Of a stretch of DNA of 64,000 nucleotides, positions 33,212 to 47,949 are shown in pieces. The DNA comes from Thermococcus sp. (lineage in GTDB: Archaea; Methanobacteriota_B; Thermococci; Thermococcales; Thermococcaceae). Under the pieces are notes generated by a model. That model was not told where the DNA came from. It made no database searches and was given only the letters and a program-made list of their open reading frames with translations. The position numbers and the translations under genes are program-made. The stretch's first letter is position 1, and each line of letters starts with the position of its first letter. Location: positions 6,013 through 70,012 of the forward strand of contig NZ_WANV01000017.1 of assembly GCF_015521605.1 (NCBI RefSeq), given 5' to 3'.

Positions 33212-33251
33212 GCTTTCGTTTTCTTCCTTCATCAAAGCGAGGTGAGAGAAA

Positions 33252-33623: not shown

Positions 33624-33628
33624 GATGA

Positions 33629-34997: not shown

Positions 34998-35001
34998 AAG
35001 G

Positions 35002-35127: not shown

Positions 35128-35441
35128 GCCTGAGAACAGGCCTGATCCTCGCCCTGGCCTACATCGTGCCCTTCGCCATACTCATGCCACCGCAGAGCAC
35201 AAACGATCCCACCAGCGTCTTCCTCTGGTTCCTCTATCCTGTCATTTCAGGGATCATCATGGTCGGCGTCGTCATCGTCGCCTGGAAGTTCTTCGACATC
35301 GACTTCATCCCGTGGGGCCTGCTACTCCTCGTAGGCGCTCCACTGCTCACGCTGCTACTTAGTCCAATCTTCAGCCTCATGTGGGGCTTCTACATCGTGC
35401 CGACGGCCCTCGTCTTCCTCGTCGGCCTCCTGGAGGGGTGA
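35124..35441 (+). CDS. Membrane protein (105 aa, 3 TM)
   Basis: ATG 35124 within the 120-aa ORF. MSLRTGLILALAYIVPFAIL. Confidence 0.6.
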   Translation: MSLRTGLILALAYIVPFAILMPPQSTNDPTSVFLWFLYPVISGIIMVGVVIVAWKFFDIDFIPWGLLLLVGAPLLTLLLSPIFSLMWGFYIVPTALVFLVGLLEG

Positions 35442-35443
35442 GA

Positions 35444-35584
35444 ATGGTCAGCAAGAAGGTGTACCTCAAAAGGAAGCGCGAAATCCTGCACCGCGTCATC
35501 ACGAACCTTCAGAAGGAGCTCGCGCGGGTGAACCGCGAGCTGAAACAGCTTGAGAGGGGTGAGAGCCATGGAGCCCGCTCATGA
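35444..35584 (+). CDS. Small coiled-coil protein (46 aa)
   Basis: Own start choice (ATG 35444, 2 nt after the previous stop). KKVYLKRKREILHRVITNLQKELARVNRELKQLE. Confidence 0.4.
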   Translation: MVSKKVYLKRKREILHRVITNLQKELARVNRELKQLERGESHGARS

Positions 35585-36479
35585 ACCCGAAGTCAGGGAG
35601 GACATCCGCGGCGAGCTCGCAAAGAAGGTTAAGAACAAAAACGAGAACAGACAGAGGTTCTGGAGGCTGGCTATCACCTTCATCGGTAGCCTGCTTGGCT
35701 TCGGCCTCATAGCCTACGCCGCGCCAGGGTTCTACGAGACAACCCTGAGCATCCATGAGAGCCTCGCCGCGCCCCGCTACAGCTTCTACGTCCTGGTGGG
35801 CTCGATAGCATTCGTCGAGTTCATGCGCATGACGTGGGTCGAGAGCGCCAAAGCCCGCTCAAAGAGACTCATCCCGCTCACCAGCCCGGAGACGGAGATT
35901 TGGGTCAAGGAGAAGCCGCTCATCGGGCTCAAGCTTCCGTTCACGAACCGCGAGATCAAGAACAAGAGGATAAAGCCCCACATCGTTGAGACCGAGCTCG
36001 GCTGGCGCGTGTATCCGAATAAGTCTCTCCTCTCGCCGCAGTGGAACGGCGAGATATACTTCATCCCCTACGACAGCATCCACGGCTACGGCAACACGAG
36101 GATCATCAGCGCCAGGAAGCCAAGCCAGCCGACCTACTATGAGACCGATCCAGTCACGGGCGAGGCTATCCCTGTCTACGTGTGGGAGCCGATTGACCTC
36201 GGCGAAGAGAAGTACATGAAAGCGCAGAAGGAGATCGCTTACCTCCAGGCCGAGAACAGGATTCTGAAAGAGTACGCCGAGCGCGGTTACCTGCTCGCTA
36301 AAGAAATCAGCCAGATCCCGCAAGAGTTCTTCGAGGAGCTCTCCAACAGAGGCTTCGAGAAGGCGAAGCAGATCCTCGACATCATGGGCAAGGGCTTCTT
36401 CAGCGAGGTCGGGAAGATCAAGAAGGAGGAAATCTCCGCCATTCTGGAAGCAATCAAGAAAGACCGCGAAGCCTGGTGA
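35568..36479 (+). CDS. Membrane protein with two N-terminal TM helices and a C-terminal helical domain (303 aa)
   Basis: FWRLAITFIGSLLGFGLIAYAAP and YVLVGSIAFVEFMRM helices. C-terminus is heptad-like. Confidence 0.6.
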   Translation: MEPAHEPEVREDIRGELAKKVKNKNENRQRFWRLAITFIGSLLGFGLIAYAAPGFYETTLSIHESLAAPRYSFYVLVGSIAFVEFMRMTWVESAKARSKRLIPLTSPETEIWVKEKPLIGLKLPFTNREIKNKRIKPHIVETELGWRVYPNKSLLSPQWNGEIYFIPYDSIHGYGNTRIISARKPSQPTYYETDPVTGEAIPVYVWEPIDLGEEKYMKAQKEIAYLQAENRILKEYAERGYLLAKEISQIPQEFFEELSNRGFEKAKQILDIMGKGFFSEVGKIKKEEISAILEAIKKDREAW

Positions 36480-36592
36480 CTCTTTCGTTTTCAATTTCCG
36501 CCGTGAAAGGGGCCGGACGTGAGTAGGGGTCCCGAAAGCGTCCGCCCCCACGGCAACGCCGGCCCGTGTGGGCCGAAAACTGCCGCGAGGTG

Positions 36593-36615
36593 ATCAAGTC
36601 AAGACGTGACTTGAT
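36593..36615. repeat. Perfect 9-bp inverted repeat ATCAAGTCA-n5-TGACTTGAT
   Basis: Read directly. Lies in the only sizeable intergenic gap (36480-36670) of the long + strand gene array, 55 nt upstream of the wHTH gene. Confidence 0.6.
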
Positions 36616-36670
36616 GGCTTGAAGGCCACATATCAGGAAAATCACACATTCCAAAACGGGAGGTGAAAAG

Positions 36671-37216
36671 GTGGCGAACGGGTTAGTCCTGAGTAGGTTT
36701 GAGTATATTTCGCGTTTGAAGGCCGAAGCGGCCGAGGATGGGGAAGCCAAGTACCTTGACCTCGCCCTTTCTCTCATGGAGAAAGCAGCGCAGCTCGAGG
36801 AGGAGATGGAGAAGGTCCCTGGAATCTACCGTGAGAAAAAGCTCGAGATAGCAAAGTCGATCATAGAACAATACCGCCAAGCGAATGAGCTCCTCGTCAA
36901 GGCGATTCTTGTTGGAGAGAGCGCCGAGATGGCACTAAGGAAGCTCGAAAGGATGCTGAGCTCACGAGCAACGCTGAGGACGAAGATTATCGCGGCCCTC
37001 TATGGGGAGACAGAACCAATCGGCCCCTCCGAGCTCGCCGAACGCTTTGGCATCTCGGCGCAGGCAGTGCATCAGGCGCTCCAGGAGCTCGACAAGCTCA
37101 AGGTCGTGGAGAAGGACGAGAAAGGCCGCTACAAGCTCCGTGACGGCGTGATGGACGAAGTCTTCAGGCTTCTCTGGCAGAGCGTCGCAGAGCTCAAGGC
37201 GAGGGGAGCGATATGA
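36671..37216 (+). CDS. Winged-helix DNA-binding protein (181 aa)
   Basis: C-terminal wHTH PIGPSELAERFGISAQAVHQALQELDKLKVVEKDEKGRYKL. GTG after GGAGGTGA. Confidence 0.6.
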   Translation: MANGLVLSRFEYISRLKAEAAEDGEAKYLDLALSLMEKAAQLEEEMEKVPGIYREKKLEIAKSIIEQYRQANELLVKAILVGESAEMALRKLERMLSSRATLRTKIIAALYGETEPIGPSELAERFGISAQAVHQALQELDKLKVVEKDEKGRYKLRDGVMDEVFRLLWQSVAELKARGAI

Positions 37217-38466
37217 TGAGCGCATATCTCGACCGCTTCGTCGTCCAGCCGCAGGAAATCAAAATCGACCAGCCGAGAACCCACGCCGTAGGCATCACGC
37301 GCGGGAAAAACTTCGTCTATGTCTCGGCAGACATGGTGCACAGATACATCTCCGGCCAGACCAACGCGGGAAAAACAACCCTCGCACAGACGCTCATGGA
37401 GGTAGACTTCCTTCGCGGCAGAAAAATCGTCGAGATTGAGCCCGCTCTGGAAGCAAAAAACGAGCGGGCATTCATGAACCTGCCAAATGACGATGACGGC
37501 ATGCTTGAGGTTCTCACCAAGTACTTCCGCCTTGAGCCGAGGCCCTTCAAGGCCATCGTGTACTCTCCAGCGACACGGAAGTACCGCGCTTTCATGAAGA
37601 ACGACGAGGGGATCCGCTCGAAGTTCTACAAGTCGCTCAAGATCACCGAGCCCGACGTTGTTGACCTAATCCCGGCCATTTTCCCGGGTGGATCCATTGA
37701 AAGGCTCATCATCAACAAGGCATATAAGAAATACACTGAAGAGATTAGGCCAAAGAGGAAAGAGCGCTCTATATCAGAATTCCTGGAAGTCTTCGAGGAG
37801 ATTGGGAAAGGGGCAAACTTTAGCAGCTTCACCTTGCTGAAAATCGAATACATAGCAAGCGTCCTCCACAGCAATGGAGAGTACAAAATAGATGAAATAC
37901 TCAAGAAAAAAGACGAGATCAGCGTCTTCACGTTCACTTTCATAAGAGACCCACTCGAAAGGTATCTGTGGGCCATGGCCATTCTCAACATTATCTATGA
38001 CAGGTGGGAGTACCTCAAGCGGAAAGATGATATTCTGAGCTTCTATGTAGCCGATGCCCATCTGCTCGCACCAAAGAAGAAGAAAGACATGATCGACACC
38101 CTCGCCAGGTACCAGGAGCGCATGAAGCAGAACTTACAAGTCTACTCGAGAATCTCGCGAGGAAAAGGCCTATTGTGGACATTTGACAGCCAGGAGTTTG
38201 ATGATCTGGACGATGTCGTGGTCGCACAGTGTCAGGAGCGCTTCATCAAGCGCATGAGAAACCAAGAAGTGGCAGACAAGCTAAAGATAAACGATGCAGA
38301 GTTGAGGCGCCTGGACAAGAAGTTCGCCTACTTCGACGACGGCTACATGGTGAAGAAAATCCTTGTCAGGCCGCCCATGAGCCGGAAGGCCCGTTCTGGA
38401 GAATTTCTCCCGATCCACTTCGTGAAAGAATACGAGAGGTGGGAGAATGAGGAGGCGAATTATTAG
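37213..38466 (+). CDS. P-loop ATPase, HerA/FtsK/VirB4-like
   Basis: 417 aa. Walker A GQTNAGKTT and Walker B-like ILSFYVADAH. 4-nt overlap with the wHTH gene. Confidence 0.7.
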   Translation: MMSAYLDRFVVQPQEIKIDQPRTHAVGITRGKNFVYVSADMVHRYISGQTNAGKTTLAQTLMEVDFLRGRKIVEIEPALEAKNERAFMNLPNDDDGMLEVLTKYFRLEPRPFKAIVYSPATRKYRAFMKNDEGIRSKFYKSLKITEPDVVDLIPAIFPGGSIERLIINKAYKKYTEEIRPKRKERSISEFLEVFEEIGKGANFSSFTLLKIEYIASVLHSNGEYKIDEILKKKDEISVFTFTFIRDPLERYLWAMAILNIIYDRWEYLKRKDDILSFYVADAHLLAPKKKKDMIDTLARYQERMKQNLQVYSRISRGKGLLWTFDSQEFDDLDDVVVAQCQERFIKRMRNQEVADKLKINDAELRRLDKKFAYFDDGYMVKKILVRPPMSRKARSGEFLPIHFVKEYERWENEEANY

Positions 38467-39646
38467 CGTCTTACTCATAATAATATATATGAATATAGCA
38501 CTTCATACCTATGCACTCGCATTTACATGGCAGCGGGAGGTCAGGCTCGGCGAACCCATTCTCATATATCATAATGATACCCTGCTCTATAACATCAGCA
38601 TCGAGATCAACAAGCAGGACAACCATACCTACGCCCTCATCCAGGACCTCCAGGCCGGAAGGCTCCTGGTTGAGAATATCGACTGGAACACTGTCGAGCT
38701 CGACGATACCAATATCAGCATCGTGAGCACGAGGAAGAGCATTCAGAACAAAACCGCCCTCATCATCATCACTGGTCCTGATGCCTACGCCGTGCTCCTC
38801 CAGGGCGAGCTGGCCAATGAGACCGAGCCGGAGAACCTGACGAACATCACTGTCGCGAACCAGACGAACCAGACCAACACCACCCCGACGAACCTGACTC
38901 CCGTCAATCTCACGCCCATCAACCTCACTCCCGTGATAATTCCAGAAAACGTTACCTGTGAGAGCGTCGAGGAGTGCCAGCAAATAATCGACAACCTGAC
39001 CGCACAGCTCGAACAGCTGAAGCAAGAGCGCGACGAACTGGCCAAACAGCTCCAGTACCTCCAGCAGCAACTCAACATGACTCAAACCGAAAACGAGCAG
39101 CTGAGAAAGCAGATCGAGATACTCCAGAAAGCCCTTGAGGAGAGGAACCAGCGCATCCGCGAGCTCGAAGAGGAGATCGAGCGCCTCAAGGCCGAACAGT
39201 GGTCGTGGGAGACTGCAAAGGAGAAGGCCGAAGAGCAGTACATGCTGTGGACGCCCTGGATATTCCCGCTTGTCTTGGGCGGGCTCGTCGTGAGCTACAG
39301 GAAATACAAGAAGATGAAGAAGTACGCCGAAGTCATGATCGACCAGAAGGCCCGGGAGCTCAAGGAGGAGCTTCTCTCTGAATACCTCAAGAAGGATCTG
39401 CTGAGGGCGAAGATCGAGACCATAGTCGATGATCCAAACCTCCTGGTTATTCTGAGAACCATCATCCCGCAGCTAACTGGAAGCCAGGAGATTACAAAGG
39501 GCGACATCCTCGAGCTCGACGTTGACCAGGTCGCAGAGCTCGCGAGGAAGAAGTTCCTCCTCAAGGAGAACCGCGTCGAGTACCTCAAGAAGAAGCTCAT
39601 CGAGCTGAAAGAAAAAATAAAGGAGGAGGCGGGCGGAGATGTTTGA
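38447..39646 (+). CDS. Type I membrane protein: sequon-rich ectodomain, long coiled coil, TM helix, cytoplasmic tail (399 aa)
   Basis: N-terminal hydrophobic leader, 15 NxT/S sequons, coiled coil LTAQLEQLKQERDELAKQLQYLQQQL.., TM WIFPLVLGGLVVSY. Confidence 0.65.
   Translation: MRRRIISVLLIIIYMNIALHTYALAFTWQREVRLGEPILIYHNDTLLYNISIEINKQDNHTYALIQDLQAGRLLVENIDWNTVELDDTNISIVSTRKSIQNKTALIIITGPDAYAVLLQGELANETEPENLTNITVANQTNQTNTTPTNLTPVNLTPINLTPVIIPENVTCESVEECQQIIDNLTAQLEQLKQERDELAKQLQYLQQQLNMTQTENEQLRKQIEILQKALEERNQRIRELEEEIERLKAEQWSWETAKEKAEEQYMLWTPWIFPLVLGGLVVSYRKYKKMKKYAEVMIDQKARELKEELLSEYLKKDLLRAKIETIVDDPNLLVILRTIIPQLTGSQEITKGDILELDVDQVAELARKKFLLKENRVEYLKKKLIELKEKIKEEAGGDV
38891..38935 (+). repeat. 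Three tandem 15-bp units encoding NLTPV/NLTPI/NLTPV
   Basis: AACCTGACTCCCGTC / AATCTCACGCCCATC / AACCTCACTCCCGTG, read directly. Confidence 0.8.
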
Positions 39647-39911
39647 ATGGTTTCTCTACATCTCCCTGGCCCTCGGGGCCTGGCTGATCTATGAGGTCGT
39701 GGCCGACAAAGTTCATGGCCCCGGCCGATACTGGATAACCCTCAACGTCGAGGGCGATGCCGACCGCGTCGAGTACCTCATCAGGCAACTCGCAAAGGAG
39801 CAGAAAATCAAGATCAGGAGCTACAAAGTCACGACCGAAAAACCCTCCAAACGCAAGAGGAAAAAGCTTTTTGGAGGTTTGCCGAAAAAAGAAAAGGAGG
39901 GTGCCACATGA
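39639..39911 (+). CDS. Small membrane protein with Lys-rich tail (90 aa)
   Basis: N-terminal TM helix FLYISLALGAWLIYEVV and a C-terminal KRKRKKLFGGLPKKEKE. Overlaps both neighbours. Confidence 0.5.
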   Translation: MFEWFLYISLALGAWLIYEVVADKVHGPGRYWITLNVEGDADRVEYLIRQLAKEQKIKIRSYKVTTEKPSKRKRKKLFGGLPKKEKEGAT

Positions 39912-41269
39912 AGAGGCTCGCCGCCTTTCTCATCTTTCTCCTCGCCGGTGCCATAGTGCCGGCCGCGGTGATGGCTGAAGGAGCGGTCGCGACGATCCAC
40001 GTTGAGGCAGGGATGCCCGAGACCATAACAATCCCCGGAGCGATAGTGAACTGGACCGGGGAGTTCCAGTATACGGCTGGCAAAGGATGGGAAGCCTACT
40101 TCAAAGTTCACTTTACCGAGACAGGCAACCCCCACGACGTGACAGCCACAGAACGCGGCTTTGTTGACTCTGACGGAAAATACATCTGGATTCTGACAGA
40201 CGTCCAAGTAACCGACAATCCGGAGGAGAAAGAACTCACACTCTACGGAGAGTGGAACCAATTCTTGGTCAAGGAGATCAATCCGCTGACCGGAGAGGCT
40301 AAGATATACAACGCCAGAGATGATAAGATCTACACGCTCCACAAGGGTGAAGAAGTGGAAATCGGGCAATTTGATATCACTGAACGAACCACCCTCGAGC
40401 TCAAAGACCTGACATGGAGCAGTGTTAGACTCATGCTCCACCACTACACGGTAGCCAGCGGGACTGTCGAAGTGTATCCAAATCCCGGCTATCCTCCGGG
40501 GACAGAGCTCGAAGAAGGAATGACGCCTACTCTTACAACAAACTCAACACCACAGCCCTTCATAGATCCGACAAAAGTTCCGGCGGTGATGATCGTTGTC
40601 GGTGAGCACGCAGCAGGGGCTGATGTGGCAGCAGGAGCAAAAGTTGGAATAGCAGTGCAGAAATGGATAGACGAATCCGACAGCCTCATCGAGTGGCTTC
40701 CCCTGCCCTCAACCGTCGTCAAGGCATACAAAGAACTCAAGAAAAGCTTCATACGCGCCGACGCGATGCTTGATACTGAGGTAACCGACCCCAACAAGAT
40801 GGCGCCAATCGTCTACAGTGTTGGGGGGCCGGCAGCGAACGAGTATTCAGCCATGCTCAACAACAGAACCGACCTGCCAGTGCGCTTTGTCAAGGAGAAC
40901 GGCAAGTGGTACCTCGTGAGCAAATACGGCGACAAGTGGAGCGGGAGCTACGGTGTCATTGAGGTAATACCCTCTGCAAGGACTCCAGAGGAAATGAAAG
41001 AGCACCTACTCAACGGCGACTTCAAACTCTACGACGTGCTCGTTGCAGGGCTTGACAGGAAAGGTACTTATGCAGCGTGCAAGCTGCTAAACGCCAACTT
41101 CATGGACATGCTCAACGGCCAGAAGCCGGATCCGAGGCTCATGAACCTCATCACCCTCCAGGCCCAACTCAACATGCTCTTCAGCGGCTACTTCTACCTC
41201 GACCAGGCCAATGCCGTGGCGATTGTTGTGGACGAAAATGGAAAAATAGTGGAAGTTGTAGCGGGGTGA
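39908..41269 (+). CDS. Secreted protein with weak S-layer-protein-like C-terminal half (453 aa)
   Basis: Signal peptide MKRLAAFLIFLLAGAIVPAAVMA. VMIVVGEHAAGADV and YSVGGPAANEY resemble the VGGPxxN motifs I remember from euryarchaeal S-layer proteins. Confidence 0.55.
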   Translation: MKRLAAFLIFLLAGAIVPAAVMAEGAVATIHVEAGMPETITIPGAIVNWTGEFQYTAGKGWEAYFKVHFTETGNPHDVTATERGFVDSDGKYIWILTDVQVTDNPEEKELTLYGEWNQFLVKEINPLTGEAKIYNARDDKIYTLHKGEEVEIGQFDITERTTLELKDLTWSSVRLMLHHYTVASGTVEVYPNPGYPPGTELEEGMTPTLTTNSTPQPFIDPTKVPAVMIVVGEHAAGADVAAGAKVGIAVQKWIDESDSLIEWLPLPSTVVKAYKELKKSFIRADAMLDTEVTDPNKMAPIVYSVGGPAANEYSAMLNNRTDLPVRFVKENGKWYLVSKYGDKWSGSYGVIEVIPSARTPEEMKEHLLNGDFKLYDVLVAGLDRKGTYAACKLLNANFMDMLNGQKPDPRLMNLITLQAQLNMLFSGYFYLDQANAVAIVVDENGKIVEVVAG

Positions 41270-41288
41270 ATATCCCTTCCTTTTCTTT

Positions 41289-41642
41289 TTACTCATAATT
41301 CAGGCGAAGTACAAAAGCACCTAACAATATAAGTAAGTTTATGAGTGCTGAGGTCATTGGGAGGTTTCCTTGGAGCAATATCCAAATGGCAAAGAGATAC
41401 CCTCCAATCCGCGCGAGAACGTAACATGCTGGCGCAGTAAATCCCTCACCTGCCGTTGCGAGTATACTCGCTATATCGGCCAATGCAAATATACTCACAA
41501 ATAATAGTCTTATCCATCCTGGAGTGCTTGAGGGAAACAATGTTATAAGTACAGCATATATTGCTGAAACAGCAATACCCAAAACTGTTCCAACCAATAC
41601 TTCTCCTACAGTATCTCCCACAACAGAAAATGGATTGTCCAT
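41289..41642 (-). CDS. Membrane protein (117 aa, 4 TM), the only minus-strand gene called in the element
   Basis: Hydrophobic ORF in the AT-rich islet. Confidence 0.55.
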   Translation of the reverse strand: MDNPFSVVGDTVGEVLVGTVLGIAVSAIYAVLITLFPSSTPGWIRLLFVSIFALADIASILATAGEGFTAPACYVLARIGGYLFAIWILLQGNLPMTSALINLLILLGAFVLRLNYE

Positions 41643-41874
41643 TCACAAGCCCCCCTGCTGCTCTTTTTGATAATGCAATACCCTTATTACTCACACTTAT
41701 AAGAACATTTCGCCGCCGCGCGCTGGAAAAAAGCCAAGAATTGAGATATCACCCAAAAACTCGAAAATCCCCGAAAGCATGACCATGAGAAATTCACCAT
41801 CCCGGGAATTTTTCGCAATCTTTATTTATTAAATAACGAACACCATAACAATTATGACAATAGGGGCGGGCAAC

Positions 41875-41964
41875 ATGGCGGGCGAACCTAGTGCTAAAAT
41901 CATCGAGCCCCTGGCAAAGTATCCTACAAAGGTAATATACTATGAGCGGGGGATAGAGCAATGA
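41875..41964 (+). CDS. 29-aa upstream ORF duplicating the 5' end of the next gene
   Basis: Own call. MAGEPSAKIIEPLAKY.. compared with the downstream MTEQEAKIIEPLAKF.. Its TGA overlaps the downstream ATG. Confidence 0.3.
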   Translation: MAGEPSAKIIEPLAKYPTKVIYYERGIEQ

Positions 41965-42410
41965 CCGAGCAAGAAGCTAAAATCATCGAACCACTAGCCA
42001 AATTTCATGCGAGGTTGGACAAAGAGGGAAGAATAGCAGTTCCCAAGGCTATCAGAGACGCTCTTAATCTTGCGAAGAATGATTACATAGAAGTGGTTAT
42101 CAGGAAGGTTGAGATTGATCATACGAAACGGGAAATTCGGATACTTCGACAAGCTTACCTCATTACAAGGCTTGGAGCCAAGGGGTTAATATTCCTGCCC
42201 TCAGAGCTAAAAAAACAATTTGATCTAAAAGAGAAAGACATCGTCGAAGTCGTTCTTTATGGATTTCACAAATTCGATGAACTTGTAAGCGAGAAGGGTA
42301 AGCTGTTGATGACCAAGATGCAAAGTGTGGGTAGATGGTCCGAACTAACGCCAGATGAACAGATTCCTGAAAGCCTGGATATGGAACACTACACTTATGT
42401 GTTTGTTTAA
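41961..42410 (+). CDS. Tandem AbrB/SpoVT-domain DNA-binding protein (149 aa)
   Basis: Two swapped-hairpin motifs: RLDKEGRIAVPKAIRDALNLAKNDYIEVV and RLGAKGLIFLPSELKKQFDLKEKDIVEVV. Confidence 0.7.
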   Translation: MTEQEAKIIEPLAKFHARLDKEGRIAVPKAIRDALNLAKNDYIEVVIRKVEIDHTKREIRILRQAYLITRLGAKGLIFLPSELKKQFDLKEKDIVEVVLYGFHKFDELVSEKGKLLMTKMQSVGRWSELTPDEQIPESLDMEHYTYVFV

Positions 42411-42412
42411 GT

Positions 42413-42436
42413 TTAATAATTAGTACTAATTATTAA
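42413..42436. repeat. 24-bp perfect palindrome TTAATAATTAGTACTAATTATTAA
   Basis: Read directly. Starts 3 nt after the AbrB gene stop, inside a 283-bp non-coding stretch. The 60-nt line at 42421 has 15 G+C. Confidence 0.85.
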
Positions 42437-42653
42437 TTAGGAATTATAGAAGCCTTTTATTTCTTTCTTCTGTCTTTTGCAGCCATATAACGGCTCCTTT
42501 TTTGGGTACTTAATTAATATGCAGGCAAAATATTTCTAATTACTGTAAGGCTTGGTAATTTCCGGGATTTTTCCCACTCAAAAAACCAATGTAGTTCATT
42601 CTACCCCAATTTTGGCCACAAAAATCTTTTATACTAAAAGTGCTTACTATCTT

Positions 42654-42677
42654 ACGAGAAATATTCTCGTACGAGAA
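42654..42677. promoter_or_regulatory. Operator-like repeats ACGAGAA-ATA-TTCTCGT-ACGAGAA next to a TATA-like TTTTATAC
   Basis: 7-bp inverted repeat plus a third direct copy, 17 nt upstream of the RHH gene ATG. TATA-like box at about 42628-42636. Confidence 0.55.
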
Positions 42678-42693
42678 AAAATCTCGGAAGGTG

Positions 42694-42879
42694 ATGAATG
42701 TGGAAAGACGTGGACGTCCTCGCAAGTATGATGGCCCCGTGAAGAGGTTCGAGGCATGGATTCCCTACGGTGTTTACCAAGAGATGGAGAAGGAGAAACT
42801 ACGTCGAGGTATCTCCTGGCCCGAGCTTGTTCTGGACATGTGGGATGCATACAAGGCAAGAGTTGCAGTTGATGGGTGA
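42694..42879 (+). CDS. Ribbon-helix-helix (CopG-like) protein with N-terminal GRPRK AT-hook-like motif (61 aa)
   Basis: MNVERRGRPRKYDGPVKRFEAWIPYGVYQEMEKEKLRRGISWPELVLDMW has a beta-strand/helix/helix pattern. ATG 42694 within the 79-aa ORF. Confidence 0.6.
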   Translation: MNVERRGRPRKYDGPVKRFEAWIPYGVYQEMEKEKLRRGISWPELVLDMWDAYKARVAVDG

Positions 42880-43871
42880 TCTTCATGAGAATTCCCGTGA
42901 GAGGCCCTGGACGTCCCCGGAAATGGAACAGTAGGCTGGTTCAATGGAGGGCGGATATTCCCGAAGAAGATTTCGAGCTCGCAGAGGACGAACGTTTGAA
43001 GTTGGGCCTCTCACGGGCGGAATGGTTCCACTGGCTTTTAAGACACACAAAAATGGACGTAATGGAACTCATCGCAAAGGTGCAGCACCAAGAAGACTAC
43101 ATCAAGCAGCTTGAAAAGGAGAAGCAAGCCCTTCTTGAGGAGCGCGAGAAGCTCCTTGAGAGGATCGAGAAGCTTGAGCTTCAGCTTGAAGCCCTCAAGC
43201 AGGGCCGCTCTGTCAGATCCTATCAGGACGCCAGGATGCTCAAGGCCCTCGCTGAAAAGGCTCGGGAGGGCGTCAGCTGGAAGGCCCTCTGTGCTGAGGT
43301 CCTTGGCCTCAGGGACGAGAACAAGATCAAACGCCTGCTCAAGCTGGCTTTTGTCGTGAAGAAGGATCAGCACAACAGGTTCCCGGACAAGTTCTACCCG
43401 AAGGACATTGCGGAGGAGTTCCACGGGTGGGTTCTCAAGAGGCCCGGCGCAAAGGCGGACATCATTGACTACGTCCTCTACAGGGAAGACACTCTCAAGG
43501 CTGCGAAGGGTCTGGCAGTCGGCGAGGCAGTGAAGGAGAAGGTCCCTGAGGTCAAGCCGCTCAGGACTGGAAAGGCCGCGGAGCGCTGGATTGAGGTGTT
43601 CTTTGAGCTTGTGCACCGCGAGTACATGAGCCTCATCGCTCAGAAGCGCGGCAAGGACGCGAAGAAGTACCTGGAAGAGAAGGTGCCACCAAAGCTGGAG
43701 AAGGTCCTGGCGGACATTGACCCGGAGGACTGGCGGCGTGCAATTCTGGCAGTGCTGGAGGAGCATGAGGAGGATTGGGGTGATGTTTTCGTTTCTAACC
43801 TTCGGCGCGTTGTTCTTCGCGCCCTTAACGCGTACCACTCAAAACCGCTGGAGGTGAAGGCCGATGTCTGA
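42876..43871 (+). CDS. RHH/AT-hook N-terminal domain + coiled coil + unknown C-terminal domain (331 aa)
   Basis: The N-terminus GPGRPRKWNSRLVQWRADIPEEDFELAEDERLKLGLSRAEWFHWLL is paralogous to the preceding 61-aa protein. Coiled coil IKQLEKEKQALLEEREKLLERIEKLELQLEALK. Confidence 0.6.
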   Translation: MIFMRIPVRGPGRPRKWNSRLVQWRADIPEEDFELAEDERLKLGLSRAEWFHWLLRHTKMDVMELIAKVQHQEDYIKQLEKEKQALLEEREKLLERIEKLELQLEALKQGRSVRSYQDARMLKALAEKAREGVSWKALCAEVLGLRDENKIKRLLKLAFVVKKDQHNRFPDKFYPKDIAEEFHGWVLKRPGAKADIIDYVLYREDTLKAAKGLAVGEAVKEKVPEVKPLRTGKAAERWIEVFFELVHREYMSLIAQKRGKDAKKYLEEKVPPKLEKVLADIDPEDWRRAILAVLEEHEEDWGDVFVSNLRRVVLRALNAYHSKPLEVKADV

Positions 43872-44121
43872 GGTGGAAACTGGATTTTGGGAATGGGTTG
43901 CTTCGGAGAAGGCTAGGTGGGATGAGGCGATTGAGTTGGTTGAGCGGGCCGAGGAAGTGCCGGACATCATCACGTGGCTCGAGCGGGAGATTCAGGTGGC
44001 CAGGGAAAACGCGTTCTCGCTCTCGCTCAGGGGCGAGAACGGGGCCGAGTACTGGACTGGCTATGCGGACGCGCTGGAGGACGTCCTCAACGCGATACGG
44101 AGAAGGGAGGTGAGGGCATGA
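43864..44121 (+). CDS. Hypothetical protein (85 aa)
   Basis: ORF-track ORF. 8-nt overlap upstream and ATGA overlap downstream. Confidence 0.5.
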   Translation: MSEVETGFWEWVASEKARWDEAIELVERAEEVPDIITWLEREIQVARENAFSLSLRGENGAEYWTGYADALEDVLNAIRRREVRA

Positions 44122-44273
44122 AGGTGGACAGGAACAGGTTCTTTGAGCTGAAGAGGGAGGTTGAGCTCCTGGCTCTCGAAGTCGAGAGCAACCACGCGAG
44201 GTACCTGCTTCGCCTGGCCTCGACGCTGATAGGTGATGCACTCGAAGAAGAGGAGCTGGAGGTGAGGGCATGA
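44118..44273 (+). CDS. Hypothetical protein (51 aa)
   Basis: ATG 44118 inside the 99-aa ORF. ATGA coupling at both ends. Confidence 0.4.
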   Translation: MKVDRNRFFELKREVELLALEVESNHARYLLRLASTLIGDALEEEELEVRA

Positions 44274-44608
44274 GTGAGTTTGGAGTCTTGGGCAGATTGA
44301 AGATTGTATATGGTGATGGCGAGACAATTGAAATCGCAGAAGGACCCCTAAATGAATTCTTTGATGACGATAAGATCAGGGAACTGTTGAGGCTTCAAAA
44401 AGAAGCTTTGGAGGAATGGCTTGAGAACGAGGAGTCATTTCTCAGGGAAGTGGTCGAAGAAGAAAGGAGGTACGGCTTTGACATCGACAAGTATCCACCT
44501 GAGCTCATTGAGAAGCTGAAGTACGTTGAGGGCCTTGATGAGGACATAGCTTCTGCTAAGAAGAGGCTCGCGATAATAAAACAACTTCTTGGGGAGGCTT
44601 CGCCATGA
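44270..44608 (+). CDS. Hypothetical acidic protein (112 aa)
   Basis: ORF-track ORF. Lower GC than its neighbours. Confidence 0.5.
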   Translation: MSEFGVLGRLKIVYGDGETIEIAEGPLNEFFDDDKIRELLRLQKEALEEWLENEESFLREVVEEERRYGFDIDKYPPELIEKLKYVEGLDEDIASAKKRLAIIKQLLGEASP

Positions 44609-44706
44609 GGCTGAAGCCCGTTGACCTCATCTTTGCGGTCCTAAAGGGCCTGGTGCTCGGCGAGCTCATTGCAGCTGTCCTCGCAGTTGTGGGGGTGATC
44701 CCGTGA
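44605..44706 (+). CDS. Small TM peptide (33 aa)
   Basis: Own call. ATGA overlap upstream and GTGA overlap downstream. LIFAVLKGLVLGELIAAVLAVVGVI. Confidence 0.3.
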   Translation: MRLKPVDLIFAVLKGLVLGELIAAVLAVVGVIP

Positions 44707-44855
44707 TCTCGAGGATTGAGGTTGATGCGAGGCTCCTGGAGGCAAGGTACAGCGTCAGGGAGGGGGACTTTGAGCGGGCAATCGAGAGTCTGGTGGAGCT
44801 CATCAGGGACCTGGTCGATGAGGTGGAGGAACTTCGCAGGGGGGCGGCCTCATGA
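44703..44855 (+). CDS. Small helical protein (50 aa)
   Basis: Own call. GTG start. VISRIEVDARLLEARYSVREGDFERAIESLVELIRDLVDEVEELRR. ATGA overlap with the next gene. Confidence 0.35.
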   Translation: MISRIEVDARLLEARYSVREGDFERAIESLVELIRDLVDEVEELRRGAAS

Positions 44856-45253
44856 CCCACTTTATATCATTCTCAGAGGAGGTTGCGGTAAAGCAGGAAG
44901 CGGCTAGGGAGGCCTGGCGCGCAAGGAAGGTTCAGGTTCTCGTCGAGGACGATGAGATCCCACCAGGGCACGAGCTGGCCCTCCCTCTCGAGAACCTCGT
45001 GAACTACCTTGAGACTATTGAAGTCCCCACGCAGGTGATCATTGACCTGGACGTGTACAGGGTGAAGCTCAGAAAGCGCGTTAGTAGGGAGGAGTACCGG
45101 GAGATACTCGAGGGGCTCAGGAGGCTCAGTTGGGCGCGGTGGGATAGGAGGAGCAGGGCGATTCTCGTTGACAGGACTCACACGTCGGCTCCGGAGGAGG
45201 AAGAGATTGAGGTTGAGGAAATTGTCGTCACACCCAAGGGGGTGAAGACCTAA
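44852..45253 (+). CDS. Hypothetical protein (133 aa)
   Basis: ORF-track ORF. Confidence 0.5.
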   Translation: MTHFISFSEEVAVKQEAAREAWRARKVQVLVEDDEIPPGHELALPLENLVNYLETIEVPTQVIIDLDVYRVKLRKRVSREEYREILEGLRRLSWARWDRRSRAILVDRTHTSAPEEEEIEVEEIVVTPKGVKT

Positions 45254-45780
45254 TGGCCTCGCGGACGGCTTTCGTCTATCAGGACTCGCTCAGCATTGAG
45301 GACGCGTTCACGTACTTCAAGCGCCTCATGCGGGACGCTGAGAACCGCGTGGCTTTCAGCCGGGCGCTCCAGAGGGCCCGCAAGGGCCTGGACGTGCACA
45401 TGTACGTGACGGACGTGGACAGCCTCATTGTGCAGTACCTGAACAGGAACGGTGTGAAGGGCTTCCGCTTCACGGGCTTCGAGCTGAAGAACATGAACCC
45501 GCACTCGGCGCTCGTGAACGGGAAGGTCAAGGTGAACGGCAAGCAGTACGAGGGGCATAGAATGTTTGCCATGAAGGCTGGCATTGACTTTTTCTACCTG
45601 GTCAATTTGGGCAGGGAGTTCCTGGTCTGGAACGTGGCGAACACGCCGGTGAATTTTGACTGGTACGGGCACGGCCCGGCCCACGATTACTACGCTTTCG
45701 TGGATTTGGAGGACGTGATTAGAGTCCCGGCTTCGGAGTTGCCGGGCACTCTCAGAATGCTGCTGTGGGGGCGCGGGTGA
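45253..45780 (+). CDS. Hypothetical protein with PD-(D/E)xK-like motif (175 aa)
   Basis: VTDVDSLIV..(20 aa)..GFELKN fits D..ExK spacing. TAATG junction upstream. Confidence 0.45.
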   Translation: MASRTAFVYQDSLSIEDAFTYFKRLMRDAENRVAFSRALQRARKGLDVHMYVTDVDSLIVQYLNRNGVKGFRFTGFELKNMNPHSALVNGKVKVNGKQYEGHRMFAMKAGIDFFYLVNLGREFLVWNVANTPVNFDWYGHGPAHDYYAFVDLEDVIRVPASELPGTLRMLLWGRG

Positions 45781-46037
45781 TGGCTCGGGTGAATTGGGAT
45801 AAGTGGGACTTGACGTTTTGGCCTCGTTCGGGAAGAGTGTTTATTGCGCACGTGAAGAGGAGGAGCGCTGACGGCACGATGATAGAAGCCGACGACGTGA
45901 AAGAAGTGACTGACAAGTTCTACGGTATCTTGGTTGAGATTCTCGAAAATCATGGTGGGGCGATAGAGTTCGAAACAAGAGGAGGGCGCAAATACAGGAT
46001 TTGGCTCGAAGAGGAGCGTGGTGGCGGTGAATCTTGA
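45780..46037 (+). CDS. Hypothetical protein (85 aa)
   Basis: ATGA overlap with the previous stop. In frame within the 90-aa ORF. Confidence 0.45.
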   Translation: MARVNWDKWDLTFWPRSGRVFIAHVKRRSADGTMIEADDVKEVTDKFYGILVEILENHGGAIEFETRGGRKYRIWLEEERGGGES

Positions 46038-46575
46038 GGAGTACAGGGAGTGGCTGAAAGAGAACGGCAACCTTGAGGAGGCCAAAGCCCCTGAAGTCAT
46101 TGAGAAGGTTGTGAAGAGGCACCTGAGCAAGCTCAACTGGAAGTCCTACAAAATCGACATAAGCCCTCGTAAGGTCTTCAAGGTCGATGGGAAACACTAT
46201 GAGTGCGATGCAACGGTTAAGCTCACCTGGCAGGCGTGGGACAATAAGACCCGCTCTATGATGATTGGCATTGAGTTCAAGGAGTGGGACTTCTCAAAGG
46301 TCGTGAGCCAGGCCGTCCACAGGAAGAGGTTCTTTGACTACATGTATATCGCTACCAGGCCCGTTACCCTCAGCCTGTCCTGGAACCCCTATGATTTCGC
46401 CCTGCTGATTAAGCACGGCATCGGTTGGGTTCTGTGGAGTGAGGACTTCGTTTACATCCTGCTCCCTGCCAAAAAGAAAGGGTGGGAGCGGGCAGAGGAA
46501 ATGGCTGAGAGGATTGAGCGCCTAATGAACACTCCGCTCCAGGAACCTAAGACGATAATGGATTACGTGAGGTGA
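46018..46575 (+). CDS. Hypothetical protein with PD-(D/E)xK-like motif (185 aa)
   Basis: YECDATVKL..(19 aa)..IGIEFKEWD fits D..ExK spacing. Confidence 0.45.
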   Translation: MVAVNLEEYREWLKENGNLEEAKAPEVIEKVVKRHLSKLNWKSYKIDISPRKVFKVDGKHYECDATVKLTWQAWDNKTRSMMIGIEFKEWDFSKVVSQAVHRKRFFDYMYIATRPVTLSLSWNPYDFALLIKHGIGWVLWSEDFVYILLPAKKKGWERAEEMAERIERLMNTPLQEPKTIMDYVR

Positions 46576-46581
46576 TGATGA

Positions 46582-46848
46582 ATGAGTGAGGGTTTCGATC
46601 TCACCATCAGGTTGGACGTGAACGATGACGGCCAGCCTGGAAGCCTCATCTGCTTTGAGCACGGTGGAAAGAAGTGGTGCGCGTACTACATTGAGCCTTG
46701 GGAAGTCATGGAAGCAGAATTGAAAGAGGCTGGCTTCCCGGACAACATTATCGAGTTCATCTACCGCTTCCTCGTGAAGTACGACCGGATTGACTTGCCA
46801 GACGACGGGGAGGATGAGGAGGACCTCGAGGAGGACTGGATACTATGA
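46582..46848 (+). CDS. Hypothetical protein with acidic tail (88 aa)
   Basis: ORF-track ORF. C-terminal DDGEDEEDLEEDW. Confidence 0.5.
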   Translation: MSEGFDLTIRLDVNDDGQPGSLICFEHGGKKWCAYYIEPWEVMEAELKEAGFPDNIIEFIYRFLVKYDRIDLPDDGEDEEDLEEDWIL

Positions 46849-46850
46849 CC

Positions 46851-46874
46851 GTTAACTTTCATACGAAAGTTAAC
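46851..46874. repeat. Perfect 10-bp inverted repeat GTTAACTTTC-ATAC-GAAAGTTAAC
   Basis: Read directly. Begins 3 nt after the stop at 46848, at the start of a 209-bp AT-rich gap. Confidence 0.8.
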
Positions 46875-47057
46875 AGGGATAATAACGCCTCCTGTATAGT
46901 ATCATTCTTTCCGAAAAGAAGTCTTCGTATGACCAAGGTGAAACAGCACAAATCCAGAATACTTGCACCACAATGCAGTATTCACCCCCAACTCGCCCAC
47001 CCCACTCCTGATGATAATTTTAAGCCCGTCGCAGTTAATAACTGAGGTGGTGTAACT

Positions 47058-47411
47058 ATGCCGAGAAAAAGACGCCTTCCCGACGTCGTGACCATCAAAA
47101 TGCCCGTCCTAGTTCAGCCTCGTGATGTGTTTGAAGTAGTCTTCGAAAGTGAGGAAGCCAGGAAGATGGCCGAGGAGATTGTGGAGTACATCAAGAAGAA
47201 CGGCCGCATGGGTTGGGACGAGTACAAGGAGCTCTTCCCGCCCGAGAAGCATTACCTCTACTTCCGCGTTATCAAGAGGCTTGAGGCCCTCGGCTTCATC
47301 AGCAGGGGCGCCTACCACACGTACATTCTCTCGAAGAAGTTTACTGACAGGATGGAGTATCTCGGCAAACTCTGGCTTTTCAAGATGGGCAAAGTCGAGG
47401 AAATCTGGTGA
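47058..47411 (+). CDS. Winged-helix-like protein (117 aa)
   Basis: IVEYIKKNGRMGWDEYKELF..YFRVIKRLEALGFISRG pattern. Confidence 0.5.
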   Translation: MPRKRRLPDVVTIKMPVLVQPRDVFEVVFESEEARKMAEEIVEYIKKNGRMGWDEYKELFPPEKHYLYFRVIKRLEALGFISRGAYHTYILSKKFTDRMEYLGKLWLFKMGKVEEIW

Positions 47412-47599
47412 GGAACATGACTACTGAGATGTTGTCAATTCTTGTTGGAATAATATTGATCATTGCAGGAGCACTCATTGGGGCAAAGGGCCTTGCTGAG
47501 GGAAATACTGTTTTAGCAGTGCTCGGGATCGGATTTGGTTATGGCGGAATGGCGATACTCAATGGGTGGGGCGATATCAGTCATGCAGAGGGGTGGTGA
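47408..47599 (+). CDS. Small membrane protein (63 aa, 2 TM)
   Basis: LSILVGIILIIAGALIGA and LAVLGIGFGYGGMAIL helices. ATGA-type overlap upstream. Confidence 0.45.
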   Translation: MRNMTTEMLSILVGIILIIAGALIGAKGLAEGNTVLAVLGIGFGYGGMAILNGWGDISHAEGW

Positions 47600-47657
47600 C
47601 GGCCATGACCGCAGTCCTAATAACCCGCGGAGTTAATATCCCACGCGGTGGGACAAT

Positions 47658-47911
47658 ATGCCCAAAAAGGCCCACAAAAATAGGGGCTCTCACACGGCCC
47701 AAAAAGCCCGAAAGAGCAAGAAGGTTAGAGTTCACATCTACCTTGATGAAGAGGTTGTCGCGGGTTTGCGGGAAGAAGGCTTCAACCTCTCTCAACTATT
47801 CAACAAGCTTGGGAGGGAGCGCCTTATGATGATGCGCTCTCAAAGGGGTCTCTTTTTCACGACAGAAAAGCTGGCGGGCCGGGCGGGATTTGAACCCGCG
47901 ACCTTCGGCTC
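47658..47911 (+). CDS. int: SSV-type integrase N-terminal fragment Int(N)
   Basis: The ORF enters attR in the same frame as Int(C) reads attL (..TTEKLAGRAGFEPATFGS). Alternative start at ATG 47826. The continuation beyond 47911 is read-through across the tRNA, not a real protein. Confidence 0.7.
47872..47911. repeat. attR core (40 bp)
   Basis: Identical to 26636-26675. Forms tRNA-Arg from the 3' side of the anticodon stem through CCA. Confidence 0.9.
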
Positions 47912-47949
47912 CGGAGGCCGACGCCCTGTCCCGACTAGGCCACCGGCCC
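47872..47949 (-). tRNA. tRNA-Arg (CCG), CCA encoded; integration target
   Basis: Reverse complement GGGCCGGTGGCCTAGTCGGGACAGGGCGTCGGCCTCCGGAGCCGAAGGTCGCGGGTTCAAATCCCGCCCGGCCCGCCA. Anticodon stem UCGGC/GCCGA with loop CUCCGGA. Confidence 0.9.

What the first reader, a model, noticed from the sequence alone, without database searches (positions are those of the whole stretch)
47658..47949. Integrase gene split by its own integration; the halves re-join in frame across the att core
Reading + through attR gives ..FFTTEKLAGRAGFEPATFGS and then runs into the tRNA. Reading + through attL (26623-27504) gives ..VVAGRAGFEPATFGS KRSLNEMWDL.. followed by the catalytic domain (GLRLAH, RKWHFNFLIRHG, GERHY). 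Both ends translate the repeat in the same frame. Circularisation would therefore fuse 47658 (or ATG 47826)-47911 to 26676-27504, giving one 360-aa (or 304-aa) recombinase. The integrated copy has no intact int gene, which is the 'suicidal' SSV-type arrangement, so excision would need a trans-acting or residual enzyme. The N-piece also has an RHH-like stretch (VRVHIYLDEEVVAGLREEGFNLSQLF) that could be a separate small regulator.
Basis: partly seen in the sequence, partly recalled or inferred. Interest (0 to 1): 0.65.

Follow-up and report, generated by a model that had tools for sequence, protein, structure and literature searches.

The report
Integrase gene split by its own integration
A 21-kb mobile element sits in a tRNA-Arg gene of a Thermococcus-type archaeon, and inserting there cut its own integrase gene in two; this is a clean new example of the already well-described "suicidal" SSV-type arrangement.

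Summary
A perfect 40-bp direct repeat (26636-26675 and 47872-47911) bounds a 21.2-kb element. The right copy is the 3' 40 nt of tRNA-Arg(CCG), from the base after the anticodon to CCA. Both copies are read in the same frame. Joining 47658-47911 to 26676-27504 gives an open 360-aa protein.

This protein aligns in one piece with intact episomal integrases: pGE2 (residues 6-360), TPV1 (3-359) and pT26-2 (17-359, 45% identity). It also aligns with SSV1 Int (59-357), whose annotated attP falls at the same place. It carries Pfam PF16795 and all conserved catalytic residues. The AlphaFold model matches the SSV1 Int catalytic domain.

The RHH-like stretch is a conserved N-terminal part of this integrase family, not a separate gene. 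The att-encoded peptide lies in a low-confidence linker.

Related loci show the same split: 12 Int(C) junctions and 2 Int(N)-into-tRNA junctions. One natural unsplit junction is 93% identical. dN/dS for Int(C) against its closest relative is 0.14.

No other integrase homologue is in the window. Excision could not be tested.

Verdict: a new member of the pT26-2-type suicidal integrases (Badel et al. 2020), carried on a mosaic, partly TPV1-like backbone. It is ordinary for specialists.

The parts
26636..26675 (.). attL core: 40-bp copy of the tRNA-Arg 3' part, with no tRNA gene around it
   Evidence: Perfect direct repeat. ARAGORN and Rfam call no tRNA here.
26676..27504 (+). Int(C): codons 86-360 of the integrase (core-binding and catalytic domains), stop at 27502-27504. 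In the integrated state the frame is open from TTG 26623, with an in-frame GTG at 26635 made of flank G plus core TG.
   Evidence: Pfam PF16795, 2.4e-51. SSV1 Int catalytic domain by sequence and by fold, TM 0.82-0.86. The family-invariant or near-invariant residues R223, K258, R303, R326, H335 and Y336 are all present. Start codons.
27505..47657 (+). Body of the integrated element, about 28 ORFs, nearly all on the + strand. It includes a LamG protein (28059-29855), an S8 subtilase (31246-32808), an S-layer-like protein (39908-41269), a wHTH protein (36671-37216), an AbrB/MazE-like protein (41961-42410) and a TPV1-like module (43864-47411).
   Evidence: Pfam, PHROGs, tblastn against TPV1 and against pT26-2.
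47633..47652 (+). Inferred int promoter region: TATA-like TTAATAT (47633-47639) 19-25 nt before the ATG, followed by the palindrome CCCACGCGGTGGG (47640-47652)
   Evidence: Read from the sequence only. No transcript data were available.
47658..47871 (+). Int(N): codons 1-71. A basic tail (1-23) is followed by an RHH-like strand-helix-helix (about codons 22-64, nt 47721-47849).
   Evidence: Conserved in frame in the intact homologues pT26-2, pGE2, TPV1, P0009 and P0010. Weak but consistent RHH hits. AlphaFold helices at 31-39 and 44-64.
47872..47911 (.). attR core, also codons 72-85 (LAGRAGFEPATFGS) of the rejoined integrase
   Evidence: In the model it lies in the low-confidence linker: residues 60-79 have pLDDT below 50.
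47872..47949 (-). Intact tRNA-Arg(CCG), the integration target. Its 5' 38 nt (47912-47949) are chromosomal. Its 3' 40 nt are the att core.
   Evidence: ARAGORN, Rfam 67.6 bits, sequence.

Best explanation
The segment 26636-47911 is a 21.2-kb mobile element integrated into the 3' part of a tRNA-Arg(CCG) gene of a Thermococcales-type chromosome. It was inserted by its own SSV-type ('suicidal', type I archaeal) tyrosine recombinase of the pT26-2 integrase family.

In the circular form, the 40-bp attP core is codons 72-85 of the 360-aa int gene. These codons lie in a flexible linker between an N-terminal RHH-like domain and the core-binding plus catalytic domains. Recombination with the identical 40 bp of the tRNA gene has three consequences:
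- it regenerates the tRNA at attR;
- it leaves Int(N) (codons 1-71) at the right end, reading into the antiparallel tRNA;
- it leaves Int(C) (codons 86-360, carrying the whole active site) at the left end, behind host DNA.

Shown here: the repeat, the frames, the homology running continuously across the junction, the intact catalytic residues, and the same split in relatives.

Inferred from published work on pT26-2, pTN3/TKV4 and SSV2, not tested here: the recombination chemistry, and that excision needs an intact related integrase supplied in trans (a superinfecting or episomal copy), possibly helped by Int(C).
For: 1. The repeat is 40/40 identical, equals tRNA positions 39-78, and has a chance expectation of 1.7e-15.
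2. Both ORFs read the core in the same frame, and the fusion is open for 360 aa.
3. The fusion aligns as single segments across the junction with intact integrases: pGE2 6-360 and pT26-2 17-359, TPV1 3-359, and SSV1 59-357. In the SSV1 alignment the att peptide LAGRAGFEPATFGS lies opposite SSV1 QADPPGFEPGTSGS, which is at SSV1's annotated integration site, codons 64-78.
4. Pfam PF16795 at 2.4e-51. R223, K258, R303 and Y336 are invariant and R326 and H335 nearly invariant across 53 family members, and all are present here.
5. The AlphaFold model (pLDDT 85) matches the SSV1 Int catalytic domain at TM 0.82-0.86, and XerA, XerH and lambda Int over two domains.
6. In 12 related genomic loci (L003-L010, L012-L015), the Int(C) frame opens a few codons before a T-arm-like sequence with no tRNA gene present. 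Two Int(N) relatives read into an antiparallel tRNA-Val(GAC). 64 of 66 database homologues have Int(C) length.
7. P0001/L026, at 93% identity, carries the Int(N) tail, the core and Int(C) contiguously in the predicted frame.
8. Int(C) compared with L003 Int(C), which has an identical core but a different flank, gives dN/dS 0.14.
9. No other integrase homologue is in the window, and no further tyrosine recombinase was found among the 20 element ORFs scanned.
Against: There is no direct evidence of activity. Neither the circular form nor an empty attB site could be looked for, because the only runs holding this DNA are kept as k=31 contigs that break inside the 40-bp core. An exact-pattern scan for the attP junction found nothing in the JGI metagenome contigs or in IMG/VR. 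No RNA runs were available.

Only 64 kb of the genome is visible, so a second, intact integrase elsewhere cannot be excluded.

The RHH assignment rests on sub-threshold hits (best E 0.0021 to 0.017). Foldseek on the isolated N-domain model returned nothing.
Confidence: 0.9

Rival explanations
1. Two genes rather than one. On this reading the N-piece is a free-standing RHH regulator, and the working recombinase is the 304-aa form starting at ATG 47826.
For: A Shine-Dalgarno-like GGGAGGGAG (47811-47819) lies 6 nt before ATG 47826. P0001/L026 is a natural 303-aa gene that starts at the equivalent Met and lacks the RHH-coding part. The N-part gives RHH-like hits.
Against: There is no stop between the RHH-like part and the rest. 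In the intact episomal genes of pT26-2 and pGE2, and in P0009 and P0010, the same stretch is fused in frame, with conserved residues (R24, H26, Y28, L29, D30 and others). In SSV1/SSV2 Int the N-part is needed for multimerisation and full activity (PMC8371274).
Confidence: 0.08
2. A trapped relic. On this reading the element integrated as described but can no longer move, and the two int halves are simply decaying pseudogenes.
For: No intact int is in the window. No attP junction was found in two collections. In the source-like run X1, the depth of the element (22.6-26.5) is about that of the left flank (19.5-29.2), which gives no sign of extra episomal copies.
Against: The repeats are still 40/40 and both halves are open and in register. 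dN/dS is 0.14 against a 92%-identical relative that sits in a different flank. The backbone is collinear with L026 at 77-95% nt identity. In runs X2 and X4, element-like contigs are several times deeper than this host's flanks, so the family occurs in other contexts.
Confidence: 0.2
3. The 40-bp repeat is a tRNA fragment duplicated by some other route, and the in-frame join is a coincidence.
For: tRNA T-arms are widely shared sequences. Frame agreement alone has a 1-in-3 chance.
Against: The rejoined halves align continuously with intact integrases. The same split recurs in relatives. The chance expectation for the repeat is 1.7e-15.
Confidence: 0.01

Closest known systems
Int-pT26-2 family of suicidal integrases of Thermococcales and Archaeoglobales (Badel et al. 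2020, PMC7253208)
   Same: 45% identity to Int-pT26-2 over 95% of the length. It has PF16795 and the same N-terminal stretch. attP lies inside int and equals the 3' part of a tRNA gene without a variable loop. The tRNA and int are antiparallel, and the gene is split into Int(N) and Int(C). The family is reported on pT26-2-like plasmids, pAMT11-like plasmids, fuselloviruses and unclassified elements.
   Different: The target here is tRNA-Arg(CCG). The main text of that paper names Arg(TCT), Arg(CGC) and Arg(TCG), and its supplementary table was not available. The core is read in the GRAGFEPA frame, as in pGE2, not in the shifted frame of pT26-2 itself (GGPGGIRTR). The backbone is not pT26-2-like: only Int and an AbrB-like protein match.
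SSV1 integrase (D-335), prototype of type I archaeal integrases
   Same: The catalytic domain matches by sequence (E 5e-10) and by fold (TM 0.82-0.86). The att core lies at the homologous place (SSV1 codons 64-78, here 72-85) and even gives a similar peptide (GFEPxTxGS). The gene is split on integration.
   Different: Identity is only 27%. The first 58 residues, which hold the RHH-like part, do not align. The host is a euryarchaeon rather than a member of the Sulfolobales.
TPV1 (Thermococcus prieurii virus 1)
   Same: The right-hand module is collinear: relatives of gp03, gp05, gp06 (annotated Holliday junction resolvase, 84% identity), gp08 (regulator) and gp10 (integrase, 38%), plus a gp28-like AbrB protein.
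   Different: The left 15 kb (LamG, subtilase, membrane and S-layer-like proteins, putative ATPase) has no detectable TPV1 match, and no fusellovirus capsid-protein match was found.
pTN3 / TKV4 integrase (Cossu et al. 2017)
   Same: It is a suicidal integrase in Thermococcales. This is the system in which excision in trans, and a possible role for Int(C), were shown (PMC8371274).
   Different: The match is distant: 27% identity over the C-part only. In pTN3, int(C) lies downstream of the tRNA promoter. Here the tRNA is antiparallel.

Membership tests
SSV-type (type I, 'suicidal') archaeal integrases | Tyrosine-recombinase catalytic domain of the Phage_integr_3 (PF16795) type | tested here: met
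   Pfam 2.4e-51, 174 bits against a cut-off of 27. PDB SSV1 Int by sequence. Foldseek TM 0.82-0.86.
SSV-type (type I, 'suicidal') archaeal integrases | attP lies inside the int reading frame, so the integrated copy has Int(N) and Int(C) at opposite ends, each next to one att repeat | tested here: met
   The rejoined ORF aligns continuously with intact homologues.
SSV-type (type I, 'suicidal') archaeal integrases | The att core is identical to part of a tRNA gene, which is regenerated on integration | tested here: met
   The core equals tRNA-Arg(CCG) positions 39-78, and an intact tRNA is called at attR.
SSV-type (type I, 'suicidal') archaeal integrases | Conserved active-site Arg, Lys, Arg, Arg, His and nucleophilic Tyr | tested here: met
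   R223, K258, R303 and Y336 are invariant and R326 and H335 nearly invariant in 53 sequences, and all are present in the window's Int(C). They align with the SSV1 motifs.
SSV-type (type I, 'suicidal') archaeal integrases | Catalyses integration and excision on the att core | not testable with these tools
   No raw reads or RNA were available. The activity is known for Int-pT26-2, Int-pTN3 and Int-SSV1/2 only from the literature (PMC7253208, PMC8371274).
Int-pT26-2 subfamily (Badel et al. 2020 data set 2: over 35% similarity over 60% of the protein) | Pairwise similarity to Int-pT26-2 above that threshold | tested here: met
   44.9% identity over 95% of the query; 46% in the alignment.
pT26-2 plasmid family (the backbone, not the integrase) | Presence of the family's core genes | tested here: not met
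   tblastn with 31 pT26-2 proteins: only t26-1p (Int) and t26-20p (AbrB-like) match.
Thermococcales fuselloviruses (TPV1-like) | Fusellovirus major capsid protein gene, the marker used by Badel et al. 2020 | tested here: inconclusive
   No match to any TPV1 structural gene by tblastn, and no PHROG hit for the small hydrophobic ORFs. Small membrane proteins are hard to detect. Only the TPV1 replication/regulation/int module is shared.
Ribbon-helix-helix (CopG/Arc/MetJ) domains, for Int residues about 22-64 | Strand-helix-helix fold with family-level sequence or structure similarity | tested here: inconclusive
   All 7 N-termini hit Pfam CcdA (best E 0.0021) and 3 hit BrnA. The top PDB profile hits are RHH proteins (Rv0298 0.017, CopG 0.083, CcdA, NikR). 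All are below curated cut-offs. AlphaFold gives an extended segment followed by two helices. Foldseek on the isolated domain found nothing.

The most novel reading that the evidence does not exclude
Integration turns an RHH-recombinase fusion into a free-standing RHH protein that is still driven by the int promoter. This Int(N) product could act as a DNA-binding regulator that reports the integrated state. It might, for example, bind the palindrome CCCACGCGGTGGG between the TATA-like box and the int start, or assemble with Int(C) or an incoming integrase at the att sites. On that reading the 'suicide' would be a genetic switch rather than a loss of function. Nothing here excludes it. Int(N)-only transcription has been reported for integrated Sulfolobus elements (PMC8371274). 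No evidence supports it in this window.
Probability: 0.12. Interest if true: 0.6.

Novelty: new member of a known kind. Interest (0 to 1): 0.22.

Why it matters
The arrangement is textbook for archaeal SSV-type integrases, so the main value is correct annotation. Without the rejoining, gene callers report a truncated "integrase" (64 of 66 database relatives have Int(C) length), together with a spurious 266-aa ORF that runs through the tRNA.

Three smaller points could feed work on how these integrases switch targets:
- The att-encoded peptide lies in a low-confidence linker, which would explain why the family tolerates different tRNAs and even different reading frames at that spot.
- The N-terminal part looks RHH-like, a fold that works as a dimer. 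This fits the known multimerisation role of the N-part in SSV integrases.
- The split halves diverge under purifying selection (dN/dS 0.14), which argues that this lineage still cycles through an intact form.

Tried and rejected
1. Junction reads. Contigs of four vent metagenome runs (X1-X4) were laid on both ends. Logan contigs (k=31) all stop inside the 40-bp core. The one "IntC-like" loose end at 47911 is simply the attL contig, which starts inside the core. So there is no information on attP or attB.
2. An exact-pattern scan for an Int(N)-core-Int(C) junction found 0 hits in the JGI metagenome contigs and in IMG/VR.
3. IMG/VR holds no relative of the integrase findable by the peptide patterns used.
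4. No RNA runs hold Int(N) or Int(C).
5. Foldseek on the isolated 53-residue N-domain model (pLDDT 69) found no match.
The single-sequence search gave 2 loci.
7. The weak tblastn hit of pT26-2 Int to 26529-26717 was considered as a possible older Int(N) remnant in the left flank. It was rejected: it is anchored on the core, read in pT26-2's shifted frame, and contains a stop.
8. The in-frame NTG start codon at the attL junction (GTG here; ATG in L003, L006, P0002 and P0004) was considered as a sign of selection for Int(C) translation. It was rejected as evidence. The TG is fixed by the tRNA's CCA, so a start codon is expected in 3 of 4 flanks by chance.
9. A putative ATPase (37213-38466) was used to classify the backbone. 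It has no match in the phage collection.

Full report
**1. The observation**

The window holds one perfect 40-bp direct repeat, TGGCGGGCCGGGCGGGATTTGAACCCGCGACCTTCGGCTC, at 26636-26675 and 47872-47911. About 1.7e-15 such pairs are expected by chance in 64 kb. There is no third copy, and no other tRNA of the window has a partial copy elsewhere.

The right copy is the last 40 nt of tRNA-Arg(CCG), which lies at 47872-47949 on the minus strand (ARAGORN; Rfam 67.6 bits). It runs from the base after the anticodon to the encoded CCA. The left copy is not part of any tRNA gene. Identity stops exactly at both edges.

On the + strand the core begins at codon position 2 in both the ORF from 47658 and the ORF from 26623. 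Joining 47658-47911 to 26676-27504 gives 1083 nt, or 360 aa, without a stop. From ATG 47826 the product is 304 aa.

**2. What the rejoined protein is**

- Pfam assigns residues 189-351 to PF16795, "Archaeal phage integrase" (2.4e-51).
- The best solved relatives by sequence are the SSV1 integrase catalytic domain (3uxu, 3vcf, 4dks; about 5e-10) and, weakly, P. abyssi XerA.
- In the plasmid collection the protein matches the pT26-2 integrase t26-1p (44.9% identity, residues 17-359) and the pGE2 integrase (38.7%, residues 6-360), each as one piece.
- In the phage collection it matches the TPV1 integrase (38.4%, residues 3-359) and SSV1 D-335 (27%, residues 59-357).
- pTN3 Int matches only the C-part (27%).
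- The three-way alignment with pT26-2 and pGE2 is collinear from the first Met to the C-terminal KKVLEG.
- In the pairwise alignment with SSV1, the att-encoded peptide LAGRAGFEPATFGS (codons 72-85) lies opposite SSV1 QADPPGFEPGTSGS. SSV1's annotated 44-bp integration site is its codons 64-78. So the core sits at the homologous place in the gene.
- Across 53 family members the invariant columns include R223, K258, R303 and Y336, and R326 and H335 are nearly invariant. All are intact in the window's Int(C).
- An AlphaFold model built on that alignment (mean pLDDT 85, pTM 0.68) matches the SSV1 Int catalytic domain at TM 0.82-0.86 and rmsd 2.6-3.0 A. It also matches XerA, XerH and lambda Int over both domains.

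**3. Start codon and the RHH-like stretch**

The stretch VRVHIYLDEEVVAGLREEGFNLSQLF is conserved, in frame and without an intervening stop, at the N-terminus of the intact integrases of pT26-2 and pGE2. The same holds for two full-length database proteins, P0009 (358 aa) and P0010 (365 aa), and for TPV1. This supports ATG 47658 and the 360-aa product, and argues against a separate regulator gene.

Is it an RHH? All seven N-termini give weak hits to the RHH antitoxin family CcdA (best E 0.0021), and three hit BrnA. A profile of the seven finds RHH proteins at the top of the PDB list: Rv0298 antitoxin 0.017, CopG 0.083, CcdA and NikR, aligned on strand plus helix A plus helix B. The models show an extended segment followed by two helices (31-39 and 44-64). 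All of this is below curated thresholds, and Foldseek on the isolated domain found nothing. I therefore call it RHH-like, not proven.

In the full model, residues 3-23 and 60-79 have pLDDT below 50. The att-encoded codons 72-85 thus fall in the linker between the N-domain and the first helix of the core-binding domain (89-107). This fits the published finding that the family tolerates different tRNA targets, and even frame-shifted translation of the core (PMC7253208). That link is my inference.

**4. The same anatomy in relatives**

A scan of one genome per species gave 22 loci. In 12 of the 16 examined (L003-L010, L012-L015), the Int(C) frame opens only a few codons before a T-arm-like sequence, translated as GRAGFEPAT, GPAGIRTPD, RRDSNPRP or RDLNPG, and no tRNA gene is called. 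These are attL-type split junctions.

L003 (a Thermococcus MAG) has the identical 40-bp core and a 92%-identical Int(C), but a different left flank. Over 275 codons there are 29.7 synonymous and 17.3 non-synonymous differences, giving dN/dS 0.14. So this "pseudogene" diverged under purifying selection.

Of 66 database homologues, 64 have Int(C) length and cover roughly residues 72-360.

From the other side, two metagenome loci encode Int(N) relatives that read straight into an antiparallel tRNA-Val(GAC).

One relative gives a natural unsplit junction. P0001 (303 aa, 93% identical) reads MMCSQRGLFFAMENL-AGRAGFEPATFAS-TRNLNEMWD, which is the Int(N) tail, the core and Int(C) in the predicted frame.

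**5. The element and its host**

The flanks are chromosomal:
- Left: a TP_methylase gene and tRNA-Val.
- Right: tRNA-Arg, a BlaI-type repressor gene and an M48 peptidase gene.
- Elsewhere in the window: SRP RNA and the C/D-box sRNA sR55.

The closest Int relatives come from Thermococcus and Pyrococcus. The only runs that hold this DNA are hydrothermal-vent metagenomes.

The 21.2-kb element has about 28 ORFs, nearly all on the + strand. It is not a pT26-2-family plasmid, because only Int and an AbrB-like protein match. Its right-hand 4 kb is collinear with TPV1 gp03, gp05, gp06 (annotated Holliday junction resolvase, 84% identical), gp08 and gp10/int. The left 15 kb encodes a LamG protein, an S8 subtilase, an S-layer-like protein, several membrane proteins, a wHTH protein and a putative ATPase. 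It has no TPV1 or PHROG structural match.

No other integrase homologue is in the window.

**6. How it most likely works**

Shown here: the anatomy of a type I ("suicidal") integration.

Inferred from biochemistry published for Int-pT26-2, Int-pTN3 and Int-SSV1/2 (PMC7253208, PMC8371274):
- The 360-aa enzyme made from the circular form recombines the 40-bp core in its own gene with the identical 3' part of tRNA-Arg(CCG).
- The tRNA is restored at attR, and int is cut into Int(N) and Int(C).
- Int(C) alone is poorly active or inactive, and the two parts do not reassemble in solution.
- Excision in vivo has been seen when a related intact integrase is supplied in trans, possibly with help from Int(C).

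For this element I could test none of that. Logan contigs break inside the core. The attP pattern is absent from two collections. There are no RNA runs.

Sequence-level hints only:
- A TATA-like TTAATAT lies 19-25 nt before ATG 47658 (a leaderless-type layout), so Int(N) probably remains expressible.
- Int(C) has in-frame TTG 26623 and GTG 26635, but it sits behind a hairpin plus a T-rich stretch (26594-26635), with no evident promoter.

**7. Comparison with what is known, and verdict**

Every defining feature of SSV-type integrases that can be tested in silico is met, and so is the similarity threshold of the pT26-2 integrase subfamily. Membership of the pT26-2 plasmid family is not met. Membership of the TPV1-like fuselloviruses is undecided.

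The phenomenon, its prevalence in Thermococcales (30% of closed genomes), the antiparallel tRNA and int, and the in silico rejoining procedure are all published (PMC7253208, PMC6972569, PMC8371274). tRNA-Arg(CCG) is not named as a target in the main text of those papers. Their supplementary table was not available, so I cannot say whether the target is new.

The finding is correct, and is a new member of a known kind. Its interest for a specialist is low. It rises modestly through the linker position of att, the RHH-like N-domain and the low dN/dS.

Noticed in passing
L026:9523-10669 (ENA contig REYS20-1...scaffold_1065, 24,983 bp): A 93%-identical int is unsplit here from about codon 53 onward: the Int(N) tail, the core and Int(C) are contiguous. 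It lacks the RHH-coding part and abuts AT-rich DNA and host-like genes. Those host genes match window 17025->8919 in inverted order (77-81% nt identity). No tRNA is in the locus. Downstream is the same element backbone. It could be a rearrangement or inversion with one breakpoint at an att junction (compare the hybrid-integrase models of Badel et al. 2020), a short-Int variant, or a misassembly.
   Followed up: partly
window 47658-48458 (+): In the integrated state the Int(N) frame stays open through the antisense tRNA and the intergenic region. It then runs in frame into the host BlaI-type repressor gene (ATG 48093, Pfam Penicillinase_R 3e-15), giving a mechanical 266-aa ORF. This is probably chance, but it is an annotation trap.
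   Followed up: partly
window 47623-47652: The palindrome CCCACGCGGTGGG (47640-47652) lies between a TATA-like TTAATAT (47633-47639) and the int ATG. It is a possible operator. It was not compared with relatives.
   Followed up: no
window 47811-47834: A Shine-Dalgarno-like GGGAGGGAG lies 6 nt before a triple ATG (47826-47834) inside int. A Met occurs near this position in pT26-2, pGE2, TPV1, P0009 and P0010. An internal start giving a 304-aa isoform without the RHH-like part is possible.
   Followed up: partly
window 26635-26637; L003, L006, P0002, P0004: The base before the core plus the core's TG (the complement of the tRNA's CCA) forms an in-frame start codon for Int(C): GTG here and ATG in four relatives. 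In the attP-type context (window attR side, L026) the codon is CTG. A start codon is expected by chance in 3 of 4 flanks, so this is not evidence of selection.
   Followed up: yes
window 47865-47871: Element DNA supplies GAAAAGC immediately beyond the tRNA's 3' end, which reads GCTTTTC on the tRNA strand. This is an oligo-T that could serve as the terminator of the regenerated tRNA. L026 has a T4 run at the same place.
   Followed up: no
window 43864-47411 versus 27505-43800: The element is a mosaic. The right module is collinear with TPV1 gp03, gp05, gp06 (84% identity), gp08 and int. The left 15 kb (LamG 28059-29855, S8 subtilase 31246-32808, S-layer-like 39908-41269, membrane proteins, putative ATPase 37213-38466) matches no catalogued virus or plasmid that was searched.
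   Followed up: partly
window 26000-27600 and 47000-48600 in runs X2 and X4: Variant Int(C)/Int(N) contigs (about 96% identical) are much deeper than this host's flanks: X4 shows 39 against 4.9 on the left flank, and X2 shows 17-65 against 5-7. Relatives of the element therefore occur in other genomic contexts, or as extra copies, in other vent samples.
   Followed up: partly
L025 (TPV1, NC_016899.1) 6054-7112: The annotated TPV1 integrase CDS starts at 6156, inside the RHH-like stretch. The frame opens at 6111 (KTRIHITIDEEVV...), just after an in-frame stop, and has no ATG before the strand. Similarity to the window's Int continues upstream to 6054. The TPV1 start is probably mis-annotated, or there is a sequence error.
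   Followed up: no
window 2002-2315 and 20660-20718: Archaeal SRP RNA (220 bits) and the C/D-box sRNA sR55 (70 bits). These are host features consistent with a Thermococcales chromosome.
   Followed up: no
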